Shown here: piece after piece, positions 41,047-64,000 of the stretch
How positions within the stretch are numbered: the stretch's first letter is position 1
Layout: the number at the start of each line of letters is the position of its first letter
Origin: an uncultured Eubacterium sp.
Lineage (GTDB): Bacteria > Bacillota > Clostridia > Lachnospirales > Lachnospiraceae
Direction of reading: 5' to 3'
NCBI GenBank assembly: GCA_945910225.1
Contig: CAMDYG010000009.1
Location: 35 to 64,034, forward strand
Length of the DNA stretch: 64,000 nt
The notes under the pieces: model-generated
Database searches by the model: none
Told to the model about the DNA's origin: nothing
The model's input: the letters and a program-made list of their open reading frames with translations, nothing else
Made by a program: the position numbers and the translations under genes

Positions 41047-42747
41047 ATGAAAAAGAAACCGATGAAAATATCAGCAATTTTAATGATGCTGATATTAATA
41101 GCTGCGTCAGCGGCTTTTCCAGTTAAAGCGGTTGCTGATGGTGGTAATTCACAGGCGGCTGGTTTTACTGTTGGAATAATTCTTGATGATGCAGCAAGTG
41201 GCAGTGATTATAATGCTGCATATCAGAAAGACTATGGTAAGTTACAATACACATATGATAATAACACATGGTATGACATCAATGTTTCAAGTGCCAATGT
41301 GACAGTAAGCAAAAGTGATAATGGTAATGGCAGACTGAAATATACACTTGTGGTTAGTGATAATAGTGTTAAGGTTAAATGCAGTGCTGTTTCAGGGAAA
41401 AGAGCTGTATCAACAGGTGCCCAGTTAAGTGGAAATGGGGAAATTACATTTACATCTGGGGCGGAAACGCATATTGAATTTAAGGATGATGCGGGACAAG
41501 GTGGACAGAATCCACCAGTACAGGGAAATCATATTGATATCCGTGTAGACGGACTGGCAGATAATAACGCTAAAGTACAGTATAAGTTAAAAAATGCATC
41601 TGTATGGGAAGATCTTACAGCTGGAATGAAATCAATACAATATACAGAAGGAGATGTGTATGTTGTAAAGGTAACATATGATGAATCAAAATATATGGTT
41701 CAGAATCCGGATGGATTATTATCTGGAGATGGTGTACTTAAGAATGGAAGAGAATATGAGATAAAGAATAGCGGGGAATATGCTATTCAGATAGACAGGA
41801 AGGTTAATACAGTTACCTGGAATAGTGATGACAGGCTGGGTGAAGATGCTAAAGTATCTCACGGAACAGTAGAGATTCTTTCCGCTGTTAAACCTGGAGA
41901 GACAGGTCAATGGTCAGGTCTTACGCCGGTAGAGGGGAATAACAGCCAGAATAATAAAGATGGCAGGGTCGTTATTGAACCGGGAAGTATAGTTACAGTA
42001 AAGCTTACTCCAGAATATGGTTATCAGTTTGTAGCGGGTTCGCTTAATGGAAATACAGTAACAGCAGGAAGCGATATAAGTACATTTACATTTACGATGC
42101 CAGATACTAATCTGCATCTCAGTGCAGTATTTGCCAAGACAGATGACATATGCAGTGTGCAGGCAGATGGAATAGAAAGTGCTTCTATTGCAGGAGGAGC
42201 ATCAGTTATAGCATCAGGTAATCTCAGACTTACAGTTAAAGATTCCGAATTAACAGATGTACAGAAGGCGACAATGGGAAACAGCAGTGCAGGACAAGGA
42301 GTAACATTAAGCAGCTGGGTTGAACTTGATCTTGAGCAGATAGTTAATAAGGGTAATACAACAGATGTATGGACTAATAAGCTGGAGGAATTAAACAATA
42401 AAGTTACAATAACTCTAAATGTAGGAAAAGGACTTGATGCATCTAAGGAATATGTTGTTATAAGAGAACATAAAGGTGAATATGAGAAACTTCCTGCTAC
42501 ATACAACAAAGCTGAAGGAACACTTACATTCCAGTCAGATCGTTTTTCTGAGTATGCCATAGGAACAGTTGAAAAATCTGCAGAGATAACAACAGGAGGA
42601 GATACAACAGAAGGAGATACAACCGGGCAGCAGTCAGAGGATGTAACAAAGACAGGTGACAGCAATGCAATATACTACATCAGTATTATGATGCTTGTTG
42701 CTGGAGCCGCGTTGATTGTATCTTTGAAAAAACTTCAAAAATTATAA
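41047..42747 (+). CDS. Secreted cell-wall-anchored beta-rich protein
   Basis: Signal peptide, InlB-B-repeat-like segment (VTVKLTPEYGYQF...FTMPDTNLHLSAVF), and a C-terminal KTGD motif plus TM plus KK tail (sortase-type signal). Confidence 0.8.
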   Translation: MKKKPMKISAILMMLILIAASAAFPVKAVADGGNSQAAGFTVGIILDDAASGSDYNAAYQKDYGKLQYTYDNNTWYDINVSSANVTVSKSDNGNGRLKYTLVVSDNSVKVKCSAVSGKRAVSTGAQLSGNGEITFTSGAETHIEFKDDAGQGGQNPPVQGNHIDIRVDGLADNNAKVQYKLKNASVWEDLTAGMKSIQYTEGDVYVVKVTYDESKYMVQNPDGLLSGDGVLKNGREYEIKNSGEYAIQIDRKVNTVTWNSDDRLGEDAKVSHGTVEILSAVKPGETGQWSGLTPVEGNNSQNNKDGRVVIEPGSIVTVKLTPEYGYQFVAGSLNGNTVTAGSDISTFTFTMPDTNLHLSAVFAKTDDICSVQADGIESASIAGGASVIASGNLRLTVKDSELTDVQKATMGNSSAGQGVTLSSWVELDLEQIVNKGNTTDVWTNKLEELNNKVTITLNVGKGLDASKEYVVIREHKGEYEKLPATYNKAEGTLTFQSDRFSEYAIGTVEKSAEITTGGDTTEGDTTGQQSEDVTKTGDSNAIYYISIMMLVAGAALIVSLKKLQKL

Positions 42748-53737: not shown

Positions 53738-54598
53738 ATGTTTGATAAAGTTACTTTAAAGTTAAATGTAGACCCACTTATTCTTGGAGCGCTTAAAGAG
53801 GACATTACAAGTGAAGATGTTTCAACTAACAGTGTTATGCCAGAACCAAAGCTTGGAGAGGTAGAACTTATATGCAAGCAGGATGGAATAATATGTGGTC
53901 TGCAGGTGTTTGCAAGGACATTTGAACTGCTTGATGAAGATACCGAGATTACATTTTATGCAAAAGACGGGGATGAAGTTAAAAATGGACAGAAAATGGC
54001 AGTCGTAAGAGGAGATATCAGAGTGCTTCTGTGTGGAGAGAGAACAGCACTTAATTATCTTCAGAGAATGAGTGGAATCGCTACATATACTAATGGAGTT
54101 GCGAAGCTGCTTACAGGAACTAAGACAAAGCTTCTTGATACAAGAAAGACATCGCCTAACAATCGTATATTTGAAAAATATGCAGTAAGAGTTGGTGGCG
54201 GTAACAATCACAGATATAATCTTACGGACGGAGTACTTCTTAAAGATAATCATATAGGAGCAGCAGGAGGAGTACGTCAGGCAGTCACAATGGCAAAGGA
54301 ATATGCGCCATTTGTAAGAAAGATAGAGGTGGAAGTTGAGAATCTTGCAATGGTAAGGGAAGCTGTAGAAGCAGGAGCAGACATAATTATGCTAGATAAT
54401 ATGAGCCATGAAGATATGAAAGAAGCCATGGGAATAATCAACGGCAAGGCATTAGTCGAAGTATCAGGTAATGTAACCAAAGAAAATATTGCCAAACTGA
54501 CAGATCTTGGTGTAGACTTTGTATCAAGTGGTGCATTAACACATTCAGCACCAATAATGGATATTTCATTAAAGAATCTTCATCCTGTAGAAGAATAG
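53738..54598 (+). CDS. nadC: Nicotinate-nucleotide pyrophosphorylase (carboxylating)
   Basis: ERTALNYLQRMSGIAT, DTRKT, HRY.L.D..LLKDNH and IMLDNM. Confidence 0.97.
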   Translation: MFDKVTLKLNVDPLILGALKEDITSEDVSTNSVMPEPKLGEVELICKQDGIICGLQVFARTFELLDEDTEITFYAKDGDEVKNGQKMAVVRGDIRVLLCGERTALNYLQRMSGIATYTNGVAKLLTGTKTKLLDTRKTSPNNRIFEKYAVRVGGGNNHRYNLTDGVLLKDNHIGAAGGVRQAVTMAKEYAPFVRKIEVEVENLAMVREAVEAGADIIMLDNMSHEDMKEAMGIINGKALVEVSGNVTKENIAKLTDLGVDFVSSGALTHSAPIMDISLKNLHPVEE

Positions 54599-54642
54599 AA
54601 ACGGATATCTGCAGAGACTGCATTAATAGAGGAGAGGTAGTC

Positions 54643-55185
54643 ATGAATGGTGATGAAAGAAGAAAACAAATAATTGATATATTAAAACATTCGTCAAGTC
54701 CTGTTCCGGGAACACAATTGGCACAGATATTAGATGTCAGCAGACAGGTAATAGTTCAGGACATTGCACTGATCAGGGCTAAAGATATAGACATATTTTC
54801 TACTAATCGTGGCTATGTAATCAATGATAAGAAAGAATATAGCCGTATATTTAAGGTGATTCATGAAGATGATGAGGTGGAGACAGAACTTGGAGCAATA
54901 GTTGATATGGGAGGCTGGATAAGGGATGTTTTCGTATATCATAAAGTATATGGTGTTATAAGAGCTGACATGAACATACATTCAAGGAGGGATATTAAGA
55001 AGTACCTTGAAGAGATAGCAAGCGGTAAGAGTAGTTTGTTGAAAAATGTAACATCAGGATATCATTATCATACGATAGTTGCGGATGATGAGCAGACTCT
55101 GGATATTATTCAGGAGGAACTTGGAAGGCTTGGATTCCTTGCAAAATTAAAAGAGTATGAACCTGTTGACTTTTGGAATAAATAA
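54643..55185 (+). CDS. niaR: Niacin-responsive repressor (HTH_11 plus 3H domain)
   Basis: G..LA..L.VSRQVIVQDIALIR, H...H 3H motifs and LKNVTSGYHYH. Last gene of the nad operon. Confidence 0.9.
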   Translation: MNGDERRKQIIDILKHSSSPVPGTQLAQILDVSRQVIVQDIALIRAKDIDIFSTNRGYVINDKKEYSRIFKVIHEDDEVETELGAIVDMGGWIRDVFVYHKVYGVIRADMNIHSRRDIKKYLEEIASGKSSLLKNVTSGYHYHTIVADDEQTLDIIQEELGRLGFLAKLKEYEPVDFWNK

Positions 55186-55223
55186 TGATATATTAGTCAG
55201 GACGGAATAATAATTAATAACGG

Positions 55224-55265
55224 AAAAGGCGCAGGCTGTATTTTGCAGCTTGTGCCTTTTCTTTT
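55224..55265 (+). terminator. Terminator of the nad operon
   Basis: AAAAGGCGCAGGCTG/CAGCTTGTGCCTTTT stem plus a T-tract. Confidence 0.8.
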
Positions 55266-55284
55266 ATTTTTTTAGTCTTTTCTC

Positions 55285-55313
55285 TTGAAAAAAATGTCGA
55301 ACAATGATACTAT
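55285..55313 (+). promoter_or_regulatory. SigA-type promoter of the T7SS locus
   Basis: TTGAAA-17-TACTAT with an extended -10 TG. Confidence 0.6.
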
Positions 55314-55380
55314 TTGTCTGTGTGTTTAGAATGACTTCAAAATAAGTTGTTTACACATTGAACGGGAGGGGAAAATTAAT

Positions 55381-58300
55381 ATGCATGTATCATTGGTCAA
55401 GAGTGCAAGGATATTTGAACTTGTGCTTCCACACACTATTAATGGAGTATATTGGGTAACAGATGTTGATGCAGCAGGTGCATCAAGAAAGTTACTGTCT
55501 ATAGAAGCATCAGAAGGAGGATGGCTCCTTAAGAATACACAACTCGCTTCGGTAAAATCACATAATGATGATATGTTATATCTTAATCCAGGCTCGTTTT
55601 ATAATGTGCAGATTAAAGGAGAAAATGATAAAGTACTTCTTTTTGTTGAAGAAACAACAAAGGACAGAGAAGAATACTATAAGTATGTAACACTGGGGAA
55701 GGTATCAGTTACAATTGGACGTGAGAATTGTGATATAACATACAATAACGCATACACATCTGCACAGCATGCGGTTCTTGAATTTGATGGAAAGAACTGG
55801 ACAATATGCGATAATCAGAGTACTAATGGAACTTATGTTAATGGATACAGAGCAGATAAACAGATGCTCAGACCAGGAGATGTTATATTTATTCTTGGCT
55901 TGAAGATAATAGCAGGTAATGGTTTTGTAGCTGTTAATAATCCTGATGGAAATGTGAAAGTGAACACATCAATACTTGTTCCATATATTAAGCAGGAATC
56001 ACAGGAGAAAGGAGAACTGGTTGTTCCTGTTAAGAAATATTTTTACAGATCTCCGAGATTTAAAAGAGACATATCTAATATCAAAATATCTATTGATTCT
56101 CCACCGCAATCGCAGGTAAAAGAAGATGTTCCAATGGCAATGGTTCTGGGACCTTCTATAACTATGGGATTGGGTTCTGTTTCAATGGCTGTATTTACAA
56201 TAATTAATACAGTAAGTTCGGGCAGATCAATAATGACAGCTATACCAACAATAGCTATGTCATTCTTTATGCTGCTTGGAATGATTTTATGGCCTATTCT
56301 TACGAGAAAACTTAATGATAAGAAAATTCTCAATGAAGAACGTATGCGTCAGGAAAAGTACAGAGAATATCTGAGCAGTATTAATGACGACATAGTAAAA
56401 GAATGTGCAAAGCAGTCAGAAATCCTTAATGAAAATGGCATATCACTTGAAGAGTGCGAAAACAGAATAATGAGTGGCAGTCCTAAGCTCTGGGAAAGAA
56501 TGATATCACATGATGACTTTCTTAAGCTTAAGGTTGGTATGGGAAACCTGAAAGCTGACATTGATATAGATTACCAGAAAAAGAAGTTTACCTTGACAGA
56601 GGATAATCTTTGGGATGACATGCTTGCGCTAGCAGCTGCTCCAATAGTACTTAGAAATGTGCCAGTAACAGTTTCACTTAAAGATAATAACATAGTGGGT
56701 CTGGTCGGCGATAACAGTCAGGAAATTCAACAATATACCAAAGACTGCATTATCCAGCTTTCTGCATTACATAGTTATGATGAACTCAAAATAGTCTATG
56801 TAGGGGATGAACAGACAGATACAGACTGGGAGTTTCTTAAGTGGCTTCCACATTGCTGGGATAACGAAAGAAAGAAAAGATATGTATTAGAATCAGTTAA
56901 TGACTTTAAAGAAATAATTGCAACATTAGATAAAGAATATGATGAGAGAAATGCAATTGTAAATAATACAAGCAAGGCTCCGGAATTCTCGCCATATTAT
57001 CTTATTATTATGAATTCCACTAAAACAGCTAACAAATGTGAGCTTATCAACAAAATATTGAATTCAGACCATAATGCTGGATTTAGTCTGTTATATATAA
57101 GCAGCAAGATCAGCGAACTTCCTAAAGAAACATCAATGGTTGTGGAACTTAATAATGGTAAGGCAAGATTATATAACAAGAATGATCTTTCTGGAGAAAT
57201 AATAGAATTCCAGAAGAATGAGAGTGTAAGAAATCAATATGACATACTTGCAAAGAAGATGCTCAATACAACACTTGATCTTTCTAAGAACTTATATACA
57301 CTGCCTGATATGCTTGATTTTCTGAGCATGTTTAATGTTGGAAAAATAGAACATCTTAATCCATTTGAAAGATGGAAAAATAATGATCCTACATTAAGCC
57401 TTCAGGCTCCGGTAGGTGTTAATACAACTGGAGATCTTTTTATGCTGGATCTTCATGAGAAATTTCAGGGACCGCATGGACTTGTAGCTGGAATGACAGG
57501 ATCAGGAAAAAGTGAGTTTATTATAACATATATATTATCAATGGCTGTTAATTACCATCCGGATGAGGTCGCATTTATCCTTATTGATTATAAAGGTGGC
57601 GGACTTGCAGGTGCGTTTGAGGATGCAGAAAAAGGAATCAAATTACCACATCTTGCCGGTACAATAACTAACCTGGATGGTGCAGCAGTCAAGCGTTCAC
57701 TTATATCAATACAGAGTGAGCTCAGAAGAAGACAGGCTGTATTTAATGAAGCAAGAAAAGTATCTAACGAGGGAACGATAGATATATACAAGTATCAGAA
57801 ATTATACAGGCAGGGAATTGTGAAAGAACCAGTACCACATCTGTTTATAATATCAGATGAATTTGCTGAATTAAAAACACAGCAGCCGGAATTCATGGAA
57901 CAGCTTACAAGTGCAGCCAGAATAGGACGAAGTCTGGGTGTACATCTTATTCTGGCGACACAGAAACCTAATGGAGTGGTTGATGACCAGATATGGAGTA
58001 ATTCACGTTTCAGAGTATGCCTTAAGGTTCAGGATAAAGCAGATAGTAACGACATGATTAAACGCCCGGATGCAGCAGAAATATCTAATACGGGACGTTT
58101 TTATCTGCAGGTCGGATTCAATGAATATTTCGATATGGGACAGTCAGCATGGTGTGGAGCACCTTATTTGCCTACGGATATAGTTAAAGATACAGTGGAT
58201 GATAATGTAGAGATAATAGATAGAATAGGACATGTATTATCGTCAAGTCCGGCAAAGAAAGTGCAGAAGCCAAAGTCAACATCAAAACAGATTGTTGCGA

Positions 58301-59967
58301 TTGTTAAGTATCTGTCTGATATTGCAGAAAAAGAATCAATAAGTGTAAGACCATTGTGGATGAAGGAAATTCCTAAGTTCATAAAGGTTGATGATATAAG
58401 AAATAAATACAACGTAACATATTCTGATGAATATGTCCTTGAACCATTAATTGGTGAACTGGACGATCCATTCAACCAGAGACAGCTTGCAGTAAGAATA
58501 CCATTATCATCAGAAGGCAATGCAGCAGTATATGCATCTTCTGGCGGAGGAAAAACATCATTTATAACAACAATGATGTATGATTTACTGCTCCATCATA
58601 CAGCCAGAACACTTAATGCATACATTATAGATTGCGGAGCAGAGACATTAAAAATGTTTGAAAAGGCGCCACAGGTTGGTGATGTAATATTATCAGGCGA
58701 TACAGAGCGTGTCATTAATTTATTTAAGATGATAAAGAAAGAGATATCATTCAGAAAGAAGTTGTTCTCAGAGTATGGCGGAGATTATGAGAGCTATTGC
58801 AAGAGAAGCAGCAAGAGTCTGCCTAACATATTAGTTGTTATACATAATTATTCTGGCTTTGCTGAGAATTACGAAACACTTGAAGATACAGTTGGATATT
58901 GTACGAGAGAGTGCACTAAATACGGTATATATTTCGTCATTACAGCTTCTGCAACTAATGCAATTAAGTTCAGAATCTTACAGAATATTAAACAGATATA
59001 TCCATTACAGCTTAATGATCAGATGGATTATGTAACACTCCTTGGAACAACACATGGAACATATCCATCATCGGCTAAAGGAAGAGGCTTGATAAAGAAA
59101 GATGAAGTATATGAATTCCAGACAGCATTTGTAGACAAAGAAGATGTAATTCAGGACAGAATTATGGATATGTGTATCAGGCTTAAGGAGGAGAATAAAG
59201 AGCATGTTGCCAGAAAAATACCAATAATGCCAGCAAAGGTTGATGCAGAATTTCTTGCTGATACAGAATTTACGTTGGCAAAGGTTCCAGTTGGTATAGA
59301 CAAGAGCAGTCTTGAAATAGTAAGGCATGACTTCCAGAACAGATGTCTTTCATTAATACTTGGACAGGTATATGAAGATGTAATCTGTACAGCACAGGCA
59401 TTAGCAGAGATTATCAGCATGAACAAAGAGACAGATGTATGTGTCATTGATACAAATGATAATTATGAAGATGACCAGAACAGACAATACACATATATTA
59501 ATTCGGATTATGAAAAAACTGTGGTTGAAATGTTTAATCTGCTTGTCACAAGAAATAATGAATATAAGAAAACAAGAGATAATAGTTCATACAGACATAA
59601 AGTATACATCATTAATTCAATAGCAGATCTGATAGAAAAGCTTACACCTGATGGGAAAGAGAAACTCTCATTACTGCTTGAAAAAACAGAGAAAGAGTAC
59701 AATGTCCATTACATAATAAGTGAACCGCTTACTAATATATCAAAGATAAGCATGACACCATGGTATAAGAAGCATTTTATTATTACAGATGGTATATGGC
59801 TTGGAAATGGATTTACCGATCAGTATACATTAAAGCTTAACAGAACTCCGACAGAATTATATAAGGGCATTGAGGAATGGCAGAGTCTTGATGTGGCGAA
59901 AGGTAATTACAGCCTTATGAAAGCAATCCAGTCAGTAACTAAGGTAGTAGAAGAAGAAACAATATAA
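55381..59967 (+). CDS. essC: Type VII secretion ATPase EssC-like (FHA, TM, FtsK/SpoIIIE domains)
   Basis: 1528 aa. FHA core (IGR...S..HA...D.QSTNGTYVNG), FYRSPR, two TM helices, GPHGLVAGMTGSGKSE, IISDEFAEL, RIGRSLGVHLILATQKP, and a second P-loop ASSGGGKTS. Confidence 0.93.
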   Translation: MHVSLVKSARIFELVLPHTINGVYWVTDVDAAGASRKLLSIEASEGGWLLKNTQLASVKSHNDDMLYLNPGSFYNVQIKGENDKVLLFVEETTKDREEYYKYVTLGKVSVTIGRENCDITYNNAYTSAQHAVLEFDGKNWTICDNQSTNGTYVNGYRADKQMLRPGDVIFILGLKIIAGNGFVAVNNPDGNVKVNTSILVPYIKQESQEKGELVVPVKKYFYRSPRFKRDISNIKISIDSPPQSQVKEDVPMAMVLGPSITMGLGSVSMAVFTIINTVSSGRSIMTAIPTIAMSFFMLLGMILWPILTRKLNDKKILNEERMRQEKYREYLSSINDDIVKECAKQSEILNENGISLEECENRIMSGSPKLWERMISHDDFLKLKVGMGNLKADIDIDYQKKKFTLTEDNLWDDMLALAAAPIVLRNVPVTVSLKDNNIVGLVGDNSQEIQQYTKDCIIQLSALHSYDELKIVYVGDEQTDTDWEFLKWLPHCWDNERKKRYVLESVNDFKEIIATLDKEYDERNAIVNNTSKAPEFSPYYLIIMNSTKTANKCELINKILNSDHNAGFSLLYISSKISELPKETSMVVELNNGKARLYNKNDLSGEIIEFQKNESVRNQYDILAKKMLNTTLDLSKNLYTLPDMLDFLSMFNVGKIEHLNPFERWKNNDPTLSLQAPVGVNTTGDLFMLDLHEKFQGPHGLVAGMTGSGKSEFIITYILSMAVNYHPDEVAFILIDYKGGGLAGAFEDAEKGIKLPHLAGTITNLDGAAVKRSLISIQSELRRRQAVFNEARKVSNEGTIDIYKYQKLYRQGIVKEPVPHLFIISDEFAELKTQQPEFMEQLTSAARIGRSLGVHLILATQKPNGVVDDQIWSNSRFRVCLKVQDKADSNDMIKRPDAAEISNTGRFYLQVGFNEYFDMGQSAWCGAPYLPTDIVKDTVDDNVEIIDRIGHVLSSSPAKKVQKPKSTSKQIVAIVKYLSDIAEKESISVRPLWMKEIPKFIKVDDIRNKYNVTYSDEYVLEPLIGELDDPFNQRQLAVRIPLSSEGNAAVYASSGGGKTSFITTMMYDLLLHHTARTLNAYIIDCGAETLKMFEKAPQVGDVILSGDTERVINLFKMIKKEISFRKKLFSEYGGDYESYCKRSSKSLPNILVVIHNYSGFAENYETLEDTVGYCTRECTKYGIYFVITASATNAIKFRILQNIKQIYPLQLNDQMDYVTLLGTTHGTYPSSAKGRGLIKKDEVYEFQTAFVDKEDVIQDRIMDMCIRLKEENKEHVARKIPIMPAKVDAEFLADTEFTLAKVPVGIDKSSLEIVRHDFQNRCLSLILGQVYEDVICTAQALAEIISMNKETDVCVIDTNDNYEDDQNRQYTYINSDYEKTVVEMFNLLVTRNNEYKKTRDNSSYRHKVYIINSIADLIEKLTPDGKEKLSLLLEKTEKEYNVHYIISEPLTNISKISMTPWYKKHFIITDGIWLGNGFTDQYTLKLNRTPTELYKGIEEWQSLDVAKGNYSLMKAIQSVTKVVEEETI

Positions 59968-59984
59968 AACTATAGGAGCAGACT

Positions 59985-60239
59985 ATGGAAGATAAAGTAT
60001 TAGTGGACATATATGTTCCGGCTTCAGGAAAACAGTATGATGTAAGAATTCCGTTAATAAGTTCAATTGGAGATGTAATCAAAACGATAGCAAGGATGAT
60101 TACAGATATGTCAGATGGAACATTTACGGCATCAGATGACACAATCCTGTGTTTCAGAGATACAGGAACTATCTTAAATATTAACATATCAGTCTATTCT
60201 GCTGGAATAACCAACGGGACTAAGCTGATGTTAATATAG
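59985..60239 (+). CDS. YukD/EsaB-like ubiquitin-fold T7SS protein
   Basis: 84 aa directly after essC. VDIYVP...YDVRIP...I..VIK...GITNGTKLMLI. Confidence 0.8.
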   Translation: MEDKVLVDIYVPASGKQYDVRIPLISSIGDVIKTIARMITDMSDGTFTASDDTILCFRDTGTILNINISVYSAGITNGTKLMLI

Positions 60240-60265
60240 ATTAAACTAAAGAAAGGAGAAATATC

Positions 60266-60577
60266 ATGGCATTAGGTATGATCAAAGTAAGCTTTGAAAG
60301 ACTTAGAAATACATCAAAGAATGTATCTTCAAAGGCTTCAGATTATGAATCAAGTTATAAGCAGCTGTATAACAAAATTGATGAGTTAAAGAGCGCATGG
60401 GATGGAGCGGACAACAAAGTTTACACAGAAAGAATTGAAGGCTTCAGAAATGATTTTGAGTATATGAAGTCATTAATGGATGAGTATGCTTCATATTTAT
60501 CTGCTACAGCAGCAAAGTATGAGGATACACAGAATGAAATTGCAGCAAATGCTAAGAGTCTTAGAATTGACAGATAG
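60266..60577 (+). CDS. WXG100 family protein 1
   Basis: 103 aa helical hairpin with a central W-D-G. Confidence 0.9.
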   Translation: MALGMIKVSFERLRNTSKNVSSKASDYESSYKQLYNKIDELKSAWDGADNKVYTERIEGFRNDFEYMKSLMDEYASYLSATAAKYEDTQNEIAANAKSLRIDR

Positions 60578-60591
60578 GAGGGAAAGAAAAA

Positions 60592-60888
60592 ATGGCAGAT
60601 ATTAATATTACATTTGCCGAGGTGCGAACAAAAGCCTCAGAAATAAGGGGATTAAATGCCGACCTTACTACTAAGTTAGCTGAAATTCAGTCAGAGATCA
60701 AAAAACTTGAAGCTGAGTGGACATCAGACGCTTCAGTAGAGATCAGATCTAAAATCACTAATCTGCAGACTCGTTTTGACGAGTATCAGCAGATTATTGA
60801 GGAATATGCAAAGTTCCTTGATGATACAGCTAATAAGTATGAATCAACAGAGAGTACATTAACTAATAATCTTGGCGCATTTGAATAA
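60592..60888 (+). CDS. WXG100 family protein 2 (W-T-S variant, with YxxxE)
   Basis: 98 aa. I.ITFAEVR..A..I, central EWTSDAS and C-terminal YESTE. Confidence 0.85.
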   Translation: MADINITFAEVRTKASEIRGLNADLTTKLAEIQSEIKKLEAEWTSDASVEIRSKITNLQTRFDEYQQIIEEYAKFLDDTANKYESTESTLTNNLGAFE

Positions 60889-60909
60889 AAAGCGGTGAGA
60901 TAGTTATTG

Positions 60910-60939
60910 GCCATGAACCGGTGAAAGCCGGTTCATGGC
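60910..60939 (+). other. Strong intercistronic hairpin without a U-tract
   Basis: GCCATGAACCGG-TGAAAG-CCGGTTCATGGC, a 12-bp perfect stem. Confidence 0.8.
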
Positions 60940-61017
60940 GTGATTATAAATTAAGAAAATAACAGCCTCACAGCAGGTTGTTCATATAGAAACAGGATGA
61001 CAGATGGAGGGAATAGC

Positions 61018-61344
61018 ATGGCAGTAGGAAAAATAGTTGTAACACCAGAAAGACTTGAAGCGGTGTCAACAAAGGTTAATGGATTAGCAGATGAATATAA
61101 GAGTGATTATGAAAAATTATACAAGGAAATTGAAAAGCTTACCAAATTCAAACAGTGGGAAGGAATTGATAATAAGGCATTTTTGGATCAGGTAAAGGCT
61201 TTCGAGGATGATTTGACATATATGTATAATCTCATGAAACAGTATGCGACTTATCTTAAAAAAACAGCCGCTGCTTACAGAGGAGTACAGACAACAGTAA
61301 AAGGTGAGGCAAAACAGAGACTGAAAACAGATGCCACATATTAA
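61018..61344 (+). CDS. WXG100 family protein 3
   Basis: 108 aa. I.VTPERLE..S and a central W-E-G. RBS GGAGG. Confidence 0.9.
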   Translation: MAVGKIVVTPERLEAVSTKVNGLADEYKSDYEKLYKEIEKLTKFKQWEGIDNKAFLDQVKAFEDDLTYMYNLMKQYATYLKKTAAAYRGVQTTVKGEAKQRLKTDATY

Positions 61345-61389
61345 TCATAAAGTTAATCATGAAATGAAATAAAAGGATGAGGTAGGAAG

Positions 61390-62253
61390 ATGAAGAAATT
61401 AATTGAATTATGGGCAGAGAAAAAAGCGTTATGCATAGGAGTAATAGCGGGAGCTGTAATTGTAATAGCCGGAGGAATAACAACCGCAGTAATCATAGGA
61501 AGTAATCACACAGGAAAAGAGACAGCGGTAGCAAGTGAAGAGACAAGCGGTCATAGTAAAGAAACAGATAAGAATAAAAAGAATAACCAGACAACCCAGT
61601 CAGTAACGGAGATATCAACAGAAGTAACAGAAAGTGCCACAGAGGAAGTGACAGACGAGAGCAAGGAAGATAACACAGAAGAAAAAGAAAATGTAAAAGA
61701 AGTAGCAGCAGATAATGACAATACAGTAGAAGAAAAGCCAGGCAACGTGCAATCAGAGAATACAGATAGTAATAATGTATCAGGCAATGAATCATCAGAT
61801 AATGGGGAAAACAGTAATAGCAACAGTGGCAATAATAGTACATCAGAACCAGTAAAACCAGAAGAACCAGTAACACAGGCACCTGTGGTAATTCATGGAA
61901 AAGATGGAGTTATATTGGATGAGCTGACAATGTATAAAAAAAATGGGATCACATTAGTATTGCCTAAAAATGTAGATGAATTAGGGAGCAAATATCGTGG
62001 GCTTAGATGTGAGGAAGATAAAACTGAACTAGAACCTATGAGGGATTCAATATATCTTGAAAAATCATCAGAGCAAGATGTTGTAAATAGATATGGTAAT
62101 CCATATGAGATATCTGAAAATCCAAGAGAAGGAACACAGATATATAAGTATTTTTATTATAAAAGGATTGATGATGATCAACAGGTTATCGTTGAGTATG
62201 TTTTTTTGGATAATGTTTTAAAGCTAATATTTGTAGGCAGTTATAAAGAATAG
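61390..62253 (+). CDS. Membrane-anchored protein with a low-complexity E/T/N/S stalk and a small C-terminal globular domain
   Basis: One N-terminal TM, an acidic/Asn-Ser-rich linker, and C-terminal ...VVNRYGNPY...YKYFYY...VEYVF. Confidence 0.8.
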   Translation: MKKLIELWAEKKALCIGVIAGAVIVIAGGITTAVIIGSNHTGKETAVASEETSGHSKETDKNKKNNQTTQSVTEISTEVTESATEEVTDESKEDNTEEKENVKEVAADNDNTVEEKPGNVQSENTDSNNVSGNESSDNGENSNSNSGNNSTSEPVKPEEPVTQAPVVIHGKDGVILDELTMYKKNGITLVLPKNVDELGSKYRGLRCEEDKTELEPMRDSIYLEKSSEQDVVNRYGNPYEISENPREGTQIYKYFYYKRIDDDQQVIVEYVFLDNVLKLIFVGSYKE

Positions 62254-62303
62254 GAGATAGTATGAAAAATCTTTGATTTTTCACACGCAAGAATGGAGAT
62301 AAT

Positions 62304-64000
62304 ATGAAAAATATACTAAGCAGGGTGGCAGCGGTAATATGCGCATTAATATTATTATTAGTATCAATACCTGTATACAATATCTTTGTATATGCTGGAG
62401 AAGAAAGCATTACAGTTAAAGTTAAGGTGTTAGATCCTAAGGGAACTTCAATAATTCCATATAAAGATACAGAAGGAAATTTGACAGGAGGGGCTGATTT
62501 AACATTTGTCAGTGATACTAATGATACAATAATTACTGAAGTAAAAATTCAATATAATGATGAAGATAAAACATACACTTTACAGGCGAAGGTGTCCAAA
62601 ACATCTTCTTTGTATATACAGGCTGAATATAATGGATTTAAGGGGAAAACTGTATATGAAAAAGATAATAATGCATATACTGTAGGGATAGAAGCTGAGA
62701 AGCTTACATTAAATGATAATGAGAACTATAAAGACGGAGTATATACAGCAGACTACAATAAAGATAATAGCAGGATTACACCGCTAGGGGTAAGCAACAA
62801 TAAAGTCAAAGCATATTATGAGATTGACAATGCACAGGATAATACATGCGGAGCAACTGTGAATTCAGGGGTTATAACATATACAAAAGTAGGAGATGCT
62901 ACAATTATAGTTAAAACAGATGATCCGTTTTATGAGGAAACGAGATATACGTTACATATCAGGAATGTACTTACAAGTAAAGAAAAGTATGAGCAAGAAT
63001 GGGGCGGAGATAGTCAGGATAAAAAATATAATGAAGTTAACCTTGATGAATTAGTTAATAAAGGATATTCAGATGAAGAAATCAAATATACTATAGATAA
63101 TACAGATGGCTTCTCATTGAATAAGAATGTCCTTTCATGGTCACGGGCAGATATACAGACAACAGTAAATGCAGAAACAGAAAGCGGTGGAAAAACACAA
63201 TTTGATTTTAGTGTGAACCGAAAACAATTGAAATTAACTGTCAGTTATGAATCTGACAAAACAGATGAAAAAGTAAATGTCAAATCAGGTGATACGATTA
63301 ATTTATCTTATGGAGATTATTATAATAATACATTAAAGTTTAAATATGAATATGAGCCGGATGATAAACAGAAAGTAAAAGTTAGCAGTGATAATGAAAA
63401 TGTGCTGAAAGTTGATGATGGAGTAGTGACCATAAAAGGAGTGGGAACAGCAAATCTAAAGTTTACAATAGATAATGCTAACTATGAAATCGAATCAGAC
63501 ATGAATTGTACGATTAATGTATTGCCGGTAAAAGCTGAAGCCATAATCTCATATAATGGAGAAACAATTAATAATACAACGAATACATGTGAAATATCTG
63601 AAGAAAAGATTAAATCAGACAACACAATAGATAAATGCTGGGATATCAGATATGAAGGTTTATTGAAAGATTCAGATGAGAATAATCTTAAACCACAATA
63701 CACATGTTCTGACAGTACACTCACAATTAATAGAGACACTGGCAATATATCTGATACAGATGAAATTGAAAGAAATAAAGAATACACAATTAAAGTGTCA
63801 TGGGATAATGGCATATATTCAGTAGCAGAAACATCATTTATATTTAAGATCAAGGGTGAAAATAAATCTGAAGATCCTGATATAAAATATTCAAAGCTTG
63901 AAGTAAAGGATCCATCTAATCCAACAGAGGAGGAAGCAAAATCTCCTTTTAATGAATATATAAGCAGGGATGGGGGAAGATGGACAACAACAAAGGATAT
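62304..64000 (+). CDS. Large secreted Ig-like (Big_2-type) repeat protein, truncated by the window end; not in the ORF track
   Basis: Manual translation is open from ATG 62304 to the end (>565 aa). Sec signal MKNILSRVAAVICALILLLVSIPVYNIFVYA. Big_2-like segments VSSDNENVLKVDDGVVTIKGVGTANL and ATVNSGVITYTKVGDATIIV. Confidence 0.85.
   Translation, partial: MKNILSRVAAVICALILLLVSIPVYNIFVYAGEESITVKVKVLDPKGTSIIPYKDTEGNLTGGADLTFVSDTNDTIITEVKIQYNDEDKTYTLQAKVSKTSSLYIQAEYNGFKGKTVYEKDNNAYTVGIEAEKLTLNDNENYKDGVYTADYNKDNSRITPLGVSNNKVKAYYEIDNAQDNTCGATVNSGVITYTKVGDATIIVKTDDPFYEETRYTLHIRNVLTSKEKYEQEWGGDSQDKKYNEVNLDELVNKGYSDEEIKYTIDNTDGFSLNKNVLSWSRADIQTTVNAETESGGKTQFDFSVNRKQLKLTVSYESDKTDEKVNVKSGDTINLSYGDYYNNTLKFKYEYEPDDKQKVKVSSDNENVLKVDDGVVTIKGVGTANLKFTIDNANYEIESDMNCTINVLPVKAEAIISYNGETINNTTNTCEISEEKIKSDNTIDKCWDIRYEGLLKDSDENNLKPQYTCSDSTLTINRDTGNISDTDEIERNKEYTIKVSWDNGIYSVAETSFIFKIKGENKSEDPDIKYSKLEVKDPSNPTEEEAKSPFNEYISRDGGRWTTTKD

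What the first reader, a model, noticed from the sequence alone, without database searches (positions are those of the whole stretch)
55381..64000. Minimal, non-canonical type VII secretion locus in a gut clostridium
Seen: promoter, essC (FHA, TM, ATPases), yukD/esaB-like, three WXG100 genes, a TM-stalk protein and a large Sec-exported Ig-like protein. Established: T7SSb of Staphylococcus and Bacillus needs EsxA, EsaA, EssA, EssB, EsaB and EssC, and usually lies near LXG toxin/immunity genes. None of essA, essB, esaA or an LXG gene is visible between the upstream terminator and the window end. Inference: a stripped-down or distinct T7SS subtype in which the two downstream surface proteins may replace the wall-spanning parts or be functional partners. 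The locus may continue past 64000.
Basis: partly seen in the sequence, partly recalled or inferred. Interest (0 to 1): 0.8.

Follow-up and report, generated by a model that had tools for sequence, protein, structure and literature searches.

The report
Front half of a T7SSe cluster
The genes are real, but this is not a stripped-down secretion system: it is the first third of a roughly 23-kb or longer type VII secretion cluster of the already described "T7SSe" kind, from a gut Lachnospira, and the remaining parts (kinase, phosphatase, FHA protein) lie just past the end of the window.

Summary
Window 55381-64000 encodes an FHA-bearing EssC-type ATPase, a YukD-like protein, three WXG100 proteins, a single-pass membrane protein and the start of a large exported protein. 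No EssA, EssB, EsaA or LXG gene is present.

The "minimal" interpretation fails. The ATPase is 48-50% identical over its full length to four proteins that Garrett, Higginson & Palmer 2024 (PMC11217815) list as TseC, the ATPase of subtype T7SSe.

Contigs from conspecific strains (94-99% nucleotide identity, one overlapping the window's last 473 bases) continue downstream as follows:
- the rest of a ~1660-aa Ig-like protein with a C-terminal anchor (TseI)
- Big_2 lipoprotein(s), 4-TM proteins and two small helical proteins
- a DUF6382+FHA protein (TseJ)
- a TM/zinc-ribbon protein (TseK-like)
- a PP2C phosphatase (TseF)
- a Ser/Thr kinase (TseD)

The features particular to this lineage are modest:
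- a duplicated TseA1
- the TM-protein/TseI pair moved to just behind the WXG100 genes
- a strain-variable region downstream

No T7SSe has been tested experimentally, so the mechanism is inferred. Verdict: new member of a known kind, interest about 0.3.

The parts
55222..55262 (+). Intrinsic-terminator-like hairpin after niaR. It marks the upstream boundary of the cluster.
   Evidence: 19-bp stem with 8 GC pairs followed by a T run. Upstream genes are nadA, nadB, nadC and niaR, plus unrelated housekeeping genes.
55285..55313 (+). Candidate sigma-70-type promoter (TTGAAA-17-TACTAT with an upstream TG), 68 nt before the tseC start. A GGGAGGGG ribosome-binding site lies just upstream of the ATG.
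   Evidence: Consensus scan. Weak support: such sites are not enriched over shuffled sequence. Sequence read.
55381..59967 (+). tseC: EssC/EccC-type membrane ATPase, 1528 aa, with an N-terminal FHA domain, two TM helices (~250-310) and FtsK-like ATPase domains.
   Evidence: TIGR03928 at 998.5 bits, plus FHA and FtsK_SpoIIIE hits. It is 48-50% identical over full length to WP_268058027.1, WP_138755922.1 and WP_229263772.1, all on the published TseC list. The FHA residues G113-R114, S127-x-x-H130 and N149-G150 are conserved in at least 95% of 121 homologues. B. subtilis YukB aligns only over residues 218-991.
59985..60239 (+). tseB: small YukD/EsaB-like (ubiquitin-like) protein, 84 aa.
   Evidence: PF08817 at 27.3 bits, cut-off 27. 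It is 86% identical to the L004 orthologue and 46% to the TseB-position protein of Caproiciproducens. The single-sequence AF2 model has pLDDT 57, and the fold search gave no significant match.
60266..60577 (+). WXG100 protein, 103 aa, TseA1-like paralogue (motif W-D-G).
   Evidence: PF06013 at 52.3 bits and TIGR03930 at 50.9 bits. It is 38% identical to Caproiciproducens TseA1 and ~40% to the third WXG100 protein. A 151-nt gut metatranscriptome contig lies at 60328-60478.
60592..60888 (+). WXG100 protein, 98 aa, TseA2-like. NCBIfam places it in the 'pore-forming ESAT-6 family'.
   Evidence: PF06013 at 53.7 bits and NF035934 at 111 bits, cut-off 100. It is 44% identical to Caproiciproducens TseA2. 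A 158-nt gut metatranscriptome contig lies at 60692-60849.
60997..61344 (+). Third WXG100 protein, a second TseA1-like paralogue (motif W-E-G). The true start is probably the ATG at 61018, giving 108 aa.
   Evidence: PF06013 at 36.7 bits. It is 45% identical to Caproiciproducens TseA1. Orthologues in L001, L004 and L005 are called at 106-108 aa and begin MAVGKIVV.
61390..62253 (+). 287-aa type II membrane protein with an N-terminal TM helix, a disordered acidic linker and a strain-variable ~100-aa C-terminal domain. It is the conserved upstream partner of tseI.
   Evidence: One hydrophobic segment at 7-40. No family hit. It is 38% identical to L012 p290 and 24% to L005 p323, each of which lies directly upstream of the large Ig-like protein. 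Only 14 representatives were found among 1.84 billion proteins. The C-terminus diverges between strains that are 98% identical elsewhere.
62304..64000 (+). tseI, N-terminal 565 codons only. The full protein is a ~1660-aa exported Ig-like repeat protein with a C-terminal membrane anchor. It is cut by the window end.
   Evidence: Open frame with a signal-peptide-like start. It is 96% identical to L003, where the full protein has Big_13/OmpL47-type repeats and a C-terminal TM helix. It is 52% identical over ~1690 aa to the L012 protein and 26% over 484 aa to the Caproiciproducens TseI-position protein.

Best explanation
Window 55381-64000 is the promoter-proximal part of a T7SSe-type type VII secretion gene cluster (nomenclature of Garrett, Higginson & Palmer 2024) in a human-gut Lachnospira species.

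Shown:
- The window encodes TseC (FHA-ATPase), TseB (YukD-like), one TseA2-like and two TseA1-like WXG100 proteins, a single-pass membrane partner protein, and the start of TseI.
- In conspecific strains the same transcriptional direction continues with the rest of TseI, a 165-aa membrane protein, one or two Big_2 lipoproteins, 4-TM DUF3592-like protein(s) and two ~95-aa helical proteins.
- After those come TseJ (DUF6382 + zinc ribbon + FHA), a TM + zinc-ribbon protein (TseK-like), TseF (PP2C phosphatase) and TseD (membrane Ser/Thr kinase).

Inferred from what is established for T7SSa and T7SSb and proposed for T7SSe:
- TseC multimerises in the membrane and uses ATP to export folded WXG100 dimers, probably TseA1/TseA2 heterodimers. 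It would also export any larger helical-domain substrates that pair with small WXG-like partners.
- TseB binds the ATPase.
- TseD and TseF set the threonine-phosphorylation state of a membrane component. That state is read by the phosphothreonine-competent FHA domains of TseC and TseJ, switching assembly or activity.
- TseI is anchored by its C-terminal helix. Together with the 287-aa stalk protein it spans the wall in the role that EsaA plays in T7SSb.

EssA, EssB and EsaA are absent because this subtype does not use them.
For: - Family of the ATPase: the top 120 homologues are full-length at 48-53% identity, apart from a 99% and a 78% relative. Those with RefSeq accessions (WP_268058027.1, WP_138755922.1, WP_229263772.1, WP_255807589.1) are all on the published TseC list.
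- Listed reference locus: in Caproiciproducens galactitolivorans the order is C-B-A1-A2-p108-J(DUF6382/FHA)-F(PP2C)-D(kinase)-p206-p149-I. Each of C, B, A1, A2, J, F, D and I has a homologue in the Lachnospira cluster.
- Closest relative: the 78%-identical TseC in a Eubacteriales MAG sits in the full set C-B-WXGx3-Big2-p96-p293-p92-J-p116-PP2C-kinase-p172-p290-TseI(1688 aa)-p166.
- Conspecific continuity, L003: it is 98% nucleotide-identical to the window over the locus.
- Conspecific continuity, L006: it overlaps window 63528-64000 at 97% and reaches a TseJ that is 74% identical to the relative's.
- Conspecific continuity, L007: it continues through p116, PP2C (73%) and the first 188 aa of the kinase (98%).
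- Conspecific continuity, run X3: a 45.5-kb contig is 98% identical to window 54500-64000, is colinear with this layout, and extends 6.4 kb beyond p97.
- FHA domain: the phosphothreonine-binding residues GR, SxxH and NG are conserved, as the paper reports for TseC.
- TseI: signal peptide, Ig-like repeats and a C-terminal TM helix, matching the published TseI description.
- p116: TM helix plus C-terminal zinc ribbon, matching the TseK description.
- Transcription: short contigs in two gut metatranscriptomes match the first two WXG100 genes.
Against: - The kinase, phosphatase and TseJ were seen in conspecific strains and a close relative, not in the window's own DNA, which stops at 64000.
- No tree was built that includes all TsxC subtypes. 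The assignment rests on best hits to listed accessions and on gene content.
- Gene order differs from the reference T7SSe. The stalk-protein/TseI pair lies directly after the WXG100 genes.
- Several genes conserved in this clade are not in the published core list: the Big_2 lipoprotein, the 4-TM DUF3592-like proteins, p97/p92, p165 and p287.
- A TseH-like protein (p172) was seen only in the 78% relative.
- No LXG, Rhs or other toxin candidate was seen.
- No T7SSe has been tested experimentally, so every mechanistic step is inference.
- The transcription evidence is two short contigs only.
Confidence: 0.85

Rival explanations
1. One reading: a minimal T7SS made only of EssC, a YukD-like protein, WXG100 proteins and two surface proteins.
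For: Within the window nothing else is visible, and no EssA, EssB, EsaA or LXG model matches.
Against: Conspecific contigs continue with TseJ, a TseK-like protein, PP2C and a kinase on the same strand. The 78% relative and the listed Caproiciproducens locus carry the same set. The FHA phosphothreonine pocket of the ATPase is intact, which fits a kinase-regulated system.
Confidence: 0.03
2. A canonical T7SSb whose essA, essB and esaA genes lie elsewhere in the genome.
For: The ATPase passes the NCBIfam 'T7_EssCb_Firm' model, and RefSeq names such proteins EssC. The whole genome could not be searched.
Against: That model also covers published TseC proteins. B. subtilis YukB aligns only over residues 218-991 at 430 bits and not over the FHA region, whereas TseC relatives score ~1600-1780 bits over the full length. 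No YukC, EssA or EsaA hit was found in ~25 kb of cluster across L003, L007 and L012. The gene content matches T7SSe instead.
Confidence: 0.03
3. A separate, still unnamed subtype that is sister to T7SSe. It would be defined by the extra conserved genes (Big_2 lipoprotein, p97/p92 helical pair, 4-TM DUF3592-like protein, p287 stalk protein, p165) and a third WXG100 protein.
For: These genes recur in L004/L012, L005 and L003/L006/L007. Most are not obviously present in the Caproiciproducens reference locus; only p108 resembles p97, at 26% identity. No Lachnospiraceae genus name appears in the text held for the paper's supplements.
Against: All ten published T7SSe component types except TseH have counterparts in Lachnospira itself, and TseH has one in the 78% relative. 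The ATPase is about as close to listed TseCs from Caproiciproducens, Paenibacillus and Cohnella (48-50%) as it is to most clostridial relatives (49-53%), so there is no sign of a separate deep branch. The published definition already allows accessory genes.
Confidence: 0.09

Closest known systems
T7SSe (Garrett, Higginson & Palmer 2024, microLife, PMC11217815). Reference example seen here: Caproiciproducens galactitolivorans, TseC WP_268058027.1.
   Same: It has an FHA-bearing ATPase with conserved phosphothreonine-binding residues and a YukD-like TseB. It has a non-identical WXG100 pair (TseA1/TseA2) and DUF6382+FHA TseJ. It has PP2C TseF and membrane kinase TseD. It has a large signal-peptide/Ig-like/C-terminal-TM TseI and small single-TM proteins.
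   Different: There are three WXG100 genes, because TseA1 is duplicated. tseI and its 287-aa partner lie directly behind the WXG100 genes rather than at the end of the cluster. Extra genes lie between tseI and tseJ: Big_2 lipoprotein(s), 4-TM DUF3592-like protein(s) and two small helical proteins. That region is strain-variable.
T7SSb of Staphylococcus aureus and Bacillus subtilis (EsxA, EsaA, EssA, EssB, EsaB, EssC).
   Same: It shares an EssC-type ATPase with an N-terminal FHA region, a ubiquitin-like EsaB/YukD protein and WXG100 substrates. The ATPase core (residues 218-991) aligns with YukB.
   Different: There is no EssB/YukC, EssA or EsaA. The FHA region does not align with YukB, and it keeps the phosphothreonine pocket that the paper reports as lost in T7SSb. 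It has a WXG100 heteropair rather than a single EsxA. A kinase/phosphatase/FHA module is present.
T7SSj and T7SSd (same paper).
   Same: Both share the TsxI Ig-like protein, the TsxD kinase and an FHA-bearing ATPase. T7SSj also has F, J and K.
   Different: T7SSd is actinobacterial and lacks TsxB. T7SSj is confined to a few Clostridium species, lacks TseH and has a TPR C-terminus on its kinase. Here the relative's kinase has no TPR hit, is 46% identical over full length to a T7SSe TseD, and is followed by a TseH-like protein.

Membership tests
T7SSe | TsxC ATPase belonging to the TseC group, with an N-terminal FHA domain | tested here: met
   It is 48-50% identical over full length to four accessions on the published TseC list. 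FHA covers residues 110-169. No multi-subtype tree was built.
T7SSe | Phosphothreonine-binding consensus conserved in the TseC FHA domain | tested here: met
   G113-R114, S127-x-x-H130 and N149-G150 are present and conserved in at least 95% of 121 aligned homologues.
T7SSe | Two non-identical WXG100 proteins (TseA1 and TseA2) | tested here: met
   Three PF06013 proteins are present. Two match TseA1 (38% and 45%) and one matches TseA2 (44%) of the reference locus.
T7SSe | Ubiquitin-like TseB | tested here: met
   PF08817 at 27.3 bits against a cut-off of 27. It occupies the same position as, and is 46% identical to, the reference TseB. The fold test was inconclusive.
T7SSe | TseI: Sec signal peptide, Ig-like repeats, C-terminal TM helix, ~1650-1700 aa | tested here: met
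   The N-terminus lies in the window. The full-length conspecific protein (L003) has Big_13/OmpL47-type repeats and TM segments at 1-33 and 1628-1647.
T7SSe | TseJ: DUF6382 N-terminal domain plus C-terminal FHA domain | tested here: met
   Found in conspecific contigs L006-L009 (393 aa; PF19909 and PF00498), about 10 kb beyond the window end. It is not in the window itself.
T7SSe | TseF: PP2C/PPM phosphatase | tested here: met
   L007 11555-12325 carries PF13672. It is 73% identical to the L004 protein and 41% to the reference protein. It is not in the window itself.
T7SSe | TseD: membrane Ser/Thr kinase | tested here: met
   L007 12335-12898 is a kinase N-terminus, 98% identical to L004 and 72% to the reference, but the contig ends there. 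The full-length L012 kinase has a TM helix at 278-303.
T7SSe | TseK: single TM helix, zinc-ribbon-like | tested here: met
   L007 p116 has a TM helix at 27-63 and a C-terminal CxxC...CxxC motif. The L012 orthologue gives a weak Zn_Ribbon_1 hit.
T7SSe | TseH: single TM helix with a short unstructured cytoplasmic part | tested here: inconclusive
   A candidate (p172, N-terminal TM helix, 38% identical over 58 aa to reference p206) was seen only in the 78% relative L012. The Lachnospira contigs end before that position.
T7SSb | EssB/YukC pseudokinase membrane protein | tested here: not met
   No PF10140/YukC or EssB model matched any protein of the cluster in the window, L003, L007 or L012. The rest of the genome was not searched.
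T7SSb | EsaA (polytopic protein with a large extracellular domain) and EssA | tested here: not met
   No EsaA or EssA model matched in the same scans. TseI has a different topology, with a signal peptide and a single C-terminal TM helix.
T7SSb | EssC FHA region homologous to that of T7SSb EssC | tested here: not met
   B. subtilis YukB (PDB 9qks) aligns only from residue 218 onward.
T7SSj | Kinase with a TPR C-terminal domain, and no TseH | tested here: not met
   The L012 kinase has no TPR hit at E<0.01 and is 46% identical over full length to a T7SSe TseD. A TseH-like p172 follows it. No TsjC sequence was available for direct comparison.
T7SSf | TsfV AAA+/TadZ-like ATPase, with no kinase and no TsxI | tested here: not met
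   A kinase and TseI are present. No AAA+/TadZ protein was seen in the cluster.

The most novel reading that the evidence does not exclude
This clostridial branch of T7SSe may carry a strain-polymorphic surface module that is not part of the published core.

- The extracellular ~100-aa C-terminal domain of the 287-aa stalk protein is replaced between strains that are 98% identical elsewhere.
- The block between tseI and tseJ (Big_2 lipoproteins plus 4-TM DUF3592-like proteins) differs in copy number and order between conspecific strains.

If this is real rather than an assembly artefact, the outer part of the machine would be under diversifying selection. That could mean it acts in target or kin recognition, acts as a phage receptor, or is an effector/immunity cassette.
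Probability: 0.3. Interest if true: 0.45.

Novelty: new member of a known kind. Interest (0 to 1): 0.3.

Why it matters
Lachnospira is an abundant commensal of the human gut. T7SSe has so far been defined only by comparative genomics and has no experimental work behind it. This record shows that a full T7SSe, with its kinase/phosphatase/FHA control module, is present in gut metagenomes, with only slight evidence so far that it is transcribed there. It gives a concrete gene list for testing whether such systems mediate competition between gut Bacillota. It also shows that an automatic 'EssC' annotation does not imply a T7SSb, and that a cluster cut by a window edge can look deceptively minimal.

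Tried and rejected
- Exact look-up of the 287-aa protein returned only 1.5-3 kb contigs.
It returned one conspecific MAG contig with 10 kb downstream, which stopped just short of tseJ.
- The look-up of Cohnella TseC (P0111) was not on record.
- The metagenome-contig scan with the Lachnospira PP2C found only relatives at 43-46% identity, not the species itself. Those loci again show J-F-D-(H)-...-I.
- Single-sequence AlphaFold2 models were too poor to use: the 287-aa protein had pLDDT 44 and TseB had pLDDT 57.
- A Foldseek PDB search with the TseB model gave nothing below E=0.7. Ubiquitin-like folds and EccD5 appeared only among insignificant hits.
Laying it on L003 showed colinearity only as far as p97.
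- Literature searches for Lachnospira or Lachnospiraceae with T7SS terms found nothing specific. No subtype beyond T7SSa-j was found.
- T7SSf, T7SSj, T7SSd and T7SSb were considered and rejected on gene content (see the membership tests).

Full report
**What is in the window**

On the + strand, a strong terminator-like hairpin (55222-55262) follows the nadA-nadB-nadC-niaR genes. Seven co-directional reading frames come after it.

1. 55381-59967 encodes a 1528-aa EssC-type ATPase.
   - TIGR03928 scores 998.5 bits against a cut-off of 778.
   - The FHA domain covers residues 110-169 and FtsK_SpoIIIE covers 671-863.
   - Walker A motifs lie at 704 and 1052.
2. 59985-60239 encodes an 84-aa YukD-like protein. 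PF08817 scores 27.3 bits, just above the cut-off of 27.
3. 60266-60577, 60592-60888 and 60997-61344 encode three WXG100 proteins.
   - The third probably starts at 61018, as its orthologues do.
4. 61390-62253 encodes a 287-aa protein with one N-terminal TM helix, a long acidic/Ser/Asn-rich linker and a ~100-aa C-terminal domain. It has no family hit.
5. From 62304 an open frame with a signal-peptide-like start runs off the window.

No EssB/YukC, EssA, EsaA or LXG model matches any of these proteins. The promoter call is not statistically supported: the region has 33 promoter-like sites against 42.9 expected from shuffles.

**Organism and what lies beyond the window**

The TseI N-terminus located one contig in the species-representative genome collection. 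It is from an uncultured Lachnospira sp. MAG (CAKRIN010000009.1, locus L003). L003 is 98% identical to the window at the nucleotide level across the locus.

In L003 the large protein is ~1660 aa. It has Big_13/OmpL47-type Ig-like repeats and a C-terminal TM helix. It is followed by a 789-aa Big_2 lipoprotein, several 4-TM proteins with weak DUF3592 similarity, and a 97-aa helical protein. The fetched stretch ends there.

Two further steps extended the view in conspecific strains.

- **L006.** The 97-aa protein led to Logan contig L006. Its first 473 bases match window 63528-64000 at 97%. It runs on to a 92-aa protein and then to a protein 74% identical to a DUF6382/FHA protein.
- **L007-L009.** That protein led to contigs L007-L009. 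L007 shows this order: TseI, p165, Big_2 (767 aa), Big_2 (780 aa), a 293-aa 4-TM protein, p97, p92, DUF6382+FHA (393 aa), p116 (TM helix plus zinc ribbon), PP2C (256 aa), and the first 188 aa of a Ser/Thr kinase.

In window-equivalent coordinates the DUF6382-FHA gene starts about 10.1 kb past position 64000, and the kinase about 12.4 kb past it. These figures apply to strains with the L006/L007 layout.

A 45.5-kb contig in a 2025 run (X3) is 98% identical to window 54500-64000. It is colinear with the L007 layout and extends 6.4 kb beyond p97. I could not read that contig directly.

**Relatives and the published classification**

Apart from a 99% and a 78% relative, the best 120 homologues of the ATPase are all full-length at 48-53% identity.

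- The 78% relative is from a Eubacteriales MAG (L004/L012). It sits in a complete cluster: C-B-WXGx3-Big_2 lipoprotein-p96-p293-p92-DUF6382/FHA-p116-PP2C-kinase-p172-p290-Ig-like (1688 aa)-p166.
- The window's 287-aa protein is 38% identical to p290.
- The Lachnospira large protein is 52% identical over ~1690 aa to the 1688-aa protein.
- The stalk-protein/Ig-protein pair is therefore conserved, but in Lachnospira it has moved to just behind the WXG100 genes.

Garrett, Higginson & Palmer 2024 (PMC11217815) divide type VII systems into T7SSa-j. Their T7SSe is found in Bacillota and consists of these parts:

- TseA1 and TseA2 (WXG100 proteins)
- TseB (YukD-like)
- TseC (FHA-ATPase with a conserved phosphothreonine pocket)
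- TseD (membrane kinase)
- TseF (PP2C phosphatase)
- TseH (single TM helix)
- TseI (signal peptide, Ig-like repeats, C-terminal TM helix)
- TseJ (DUF6382+FHA)
- TseK (single TM helix, zinc-ribbon-like)

Four of my hits carry RefSeq accessions (WP_268058027.1, WP_138755922.1, WP_229263772.1, WP_255807589.1). All four are on that paper's TseC list.

The listed Caproiciproducens locus (L010) reads C-B-A1-A2-p108-J-F-D-p206-p149-I. Identities between its proteins and the Lachnospira set are as follows:

| Component | Identity |
|---|---|
| TseC | 49.5% |
| TseB | 46% |
| TseA1 | 45% and 38% (two paralogues) |
| TseA2 | 44% |
| TseJ | 31% |
| TseF | 41% |
| TseD (N-terminal part) | 72% |
| TseI | 26% over 484 aa |

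The FHA residues GR, SxxH and NG are conserved in at least 95% of 121 aligned homologues, as the paper reports for TseC. In contrast, B. subtilis YukB (T7SSb) aligns only over residues 218-991, at 430 bits, and not over the FHA region.

**Conclusion on identity**

The locus is a T7SSe cluster, not a minimal system and not a T7SSb with missing parts. The absence of essA, essB and esaA is expected for this subtype.

- T7SSf is excluded because it has no kinase and no TsxI, and has a TadZ-like AAA+ protein.
- T7SSj is excluded because its kinase has a TPR C-terminus and it lacks TseH.
- T7SSd is excluded because it is actinobacterial and lacks TsxB.

These exclusions rest on gene content.

Three caveats remain.

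1. The kinase, phosphatase and TseJ genes were seen in conspecific strains, not in the window's own DNA.
2. No tree with all TsxC subtypes was built.
3. A TseH candidate was seen only in the 78% relative.

**How it probably works (inference)**

The reasoning is by analogy with T7SSa and T7SSb and follows the published proposal.

- TseC oligomers export WXG100 dimers, probably TseA1/TseA2 heterodimers, and any larger substrates.
- TseB binds the ATPase.
- The TseD kinase and TseF phosphatase set a phosphothreonine mark. The FHA domains of TseC and TseJ read that mark, gating assembly or activity.
- TseI, together with the 287-aa stalk protein, spans the wall in the place EsaA occupies in T7SSb.

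No toxin or immunity candidate was recognised in the stretches seen. Two gut metatranscriptome runs each contain one short contig matching the first or second WXG100 gene. That is slight evidence of transcription in vivo.

**What is particular here**

- There are three WXG100 genes rather than two.
- The stalk-protein/TseI pair has been relocated.
- A set of clade-conserved extras lies outside the published core: a Big_2 lipoprotein, 4-TM DUF3592-like proteins, the p97/p92 pair and p165.
- The block between tseI and tseJ differs between L003 and L006/L007/X3.
- The C-terminal ~100 aa of the 287-aa protein differ sharply between strains that are otherwise 98% identical. Overall identity for that protein is 67%, with a near-identical N-terminal part.
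- That family is very small: 14 representatives among 1.84 billion proteins.

These points justify 'new member of a known kind', with some lineage-specific variation. They do not justify a new kind of system.

**What led nowhere**

Single-sequence structure models of the 287-aa protein and of TseB were of low confidence, and the fold search was uninformative.

Noticed in passing
window 61390-62253; L003 8972-9871 and 19270-19929: The 287-aa stalk protein has a nearly invariant N-terminal TM helix and linker. Its C-terminal ~100 aa diverge between strains that are 98% identical elsewhere: overall identity to the L003 orthologue is 67%, and a run X3 contig replaces the same segment. L003 also carries a 219-aa chimera made of this protein's N-terminal part and the last ~28 codons of tseI.
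   Followed up: partly
L003 14988-21314 compared with L007 3183-9361 (downstream of the window): The block between tseI and the p97 gene differs between conspecific strains. L003 has Big_2 (789 aa) followed by proteins of 295, 241, 219, 165 and 301 aa. L007, L006 and the run X3 contig have p165, Big_2 (767 aa), Big_2 (780 aa) and p293. In L003 a 4.86-kb segment is bounded by a ~25-nt repeat. This could be real recombination or a MAG assembly artefact.
   Followed up: partly
L007 12335-12898 compared with L004 22368-24101: The first 188 aa of the TseD kinase are 98% identical between the Lachnospira strain and the Eubacteriales MAG. Neighbouring proteins are only 66-78% identical. The same stretch is 72% identical to the Caproiciproducens kinase, against 31-50% for the other components. 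This points either to very strong constraint on the kinase domain or to recent exchange.
   Followed up: no
window 60997-61344: The longest ORF of the third WXG100 gene starts at 60997. Orthologues start at the position equivalent to 61018 (MAVGKIVV, 106-108 aa), which leaves a ~130-nt gap after the second WXG100 gene.
   Followed up: partly
window 60328-60478 and 60692-60849: Two 2017 gut metatranscriptome runs (X1, X2) each hold one short contig (151 and 158 nt, with 0 and 1 mismatches) on the first and second WXG100 genes. Nothing convincing was found elsewhere in the locus.
   Followed up: partly
L014, L016, L017 (metagenome loci): More distant T7SSe-like loci show the TseJ-PP2C-kinase order, with a p172-like gene in L014 and a later TseI-like protein in L014 and L017. 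They have no TseC or WXG100 hit within the 10 kb upstream, so gene order in these lineages differs again.
   Followed up: no
window 41047-42747: A 566-aa protein with a divergent InlB B-repeat (Flg_new_2) domain lies among otherwise housekeeping genes upstream (homoserine dehydrogenase, RNase H, GDSL lipase, P-type ATPase, nadABC, niaR). It is unrelated to the T7SS cluster as far as can be seen.
   Followed up: no
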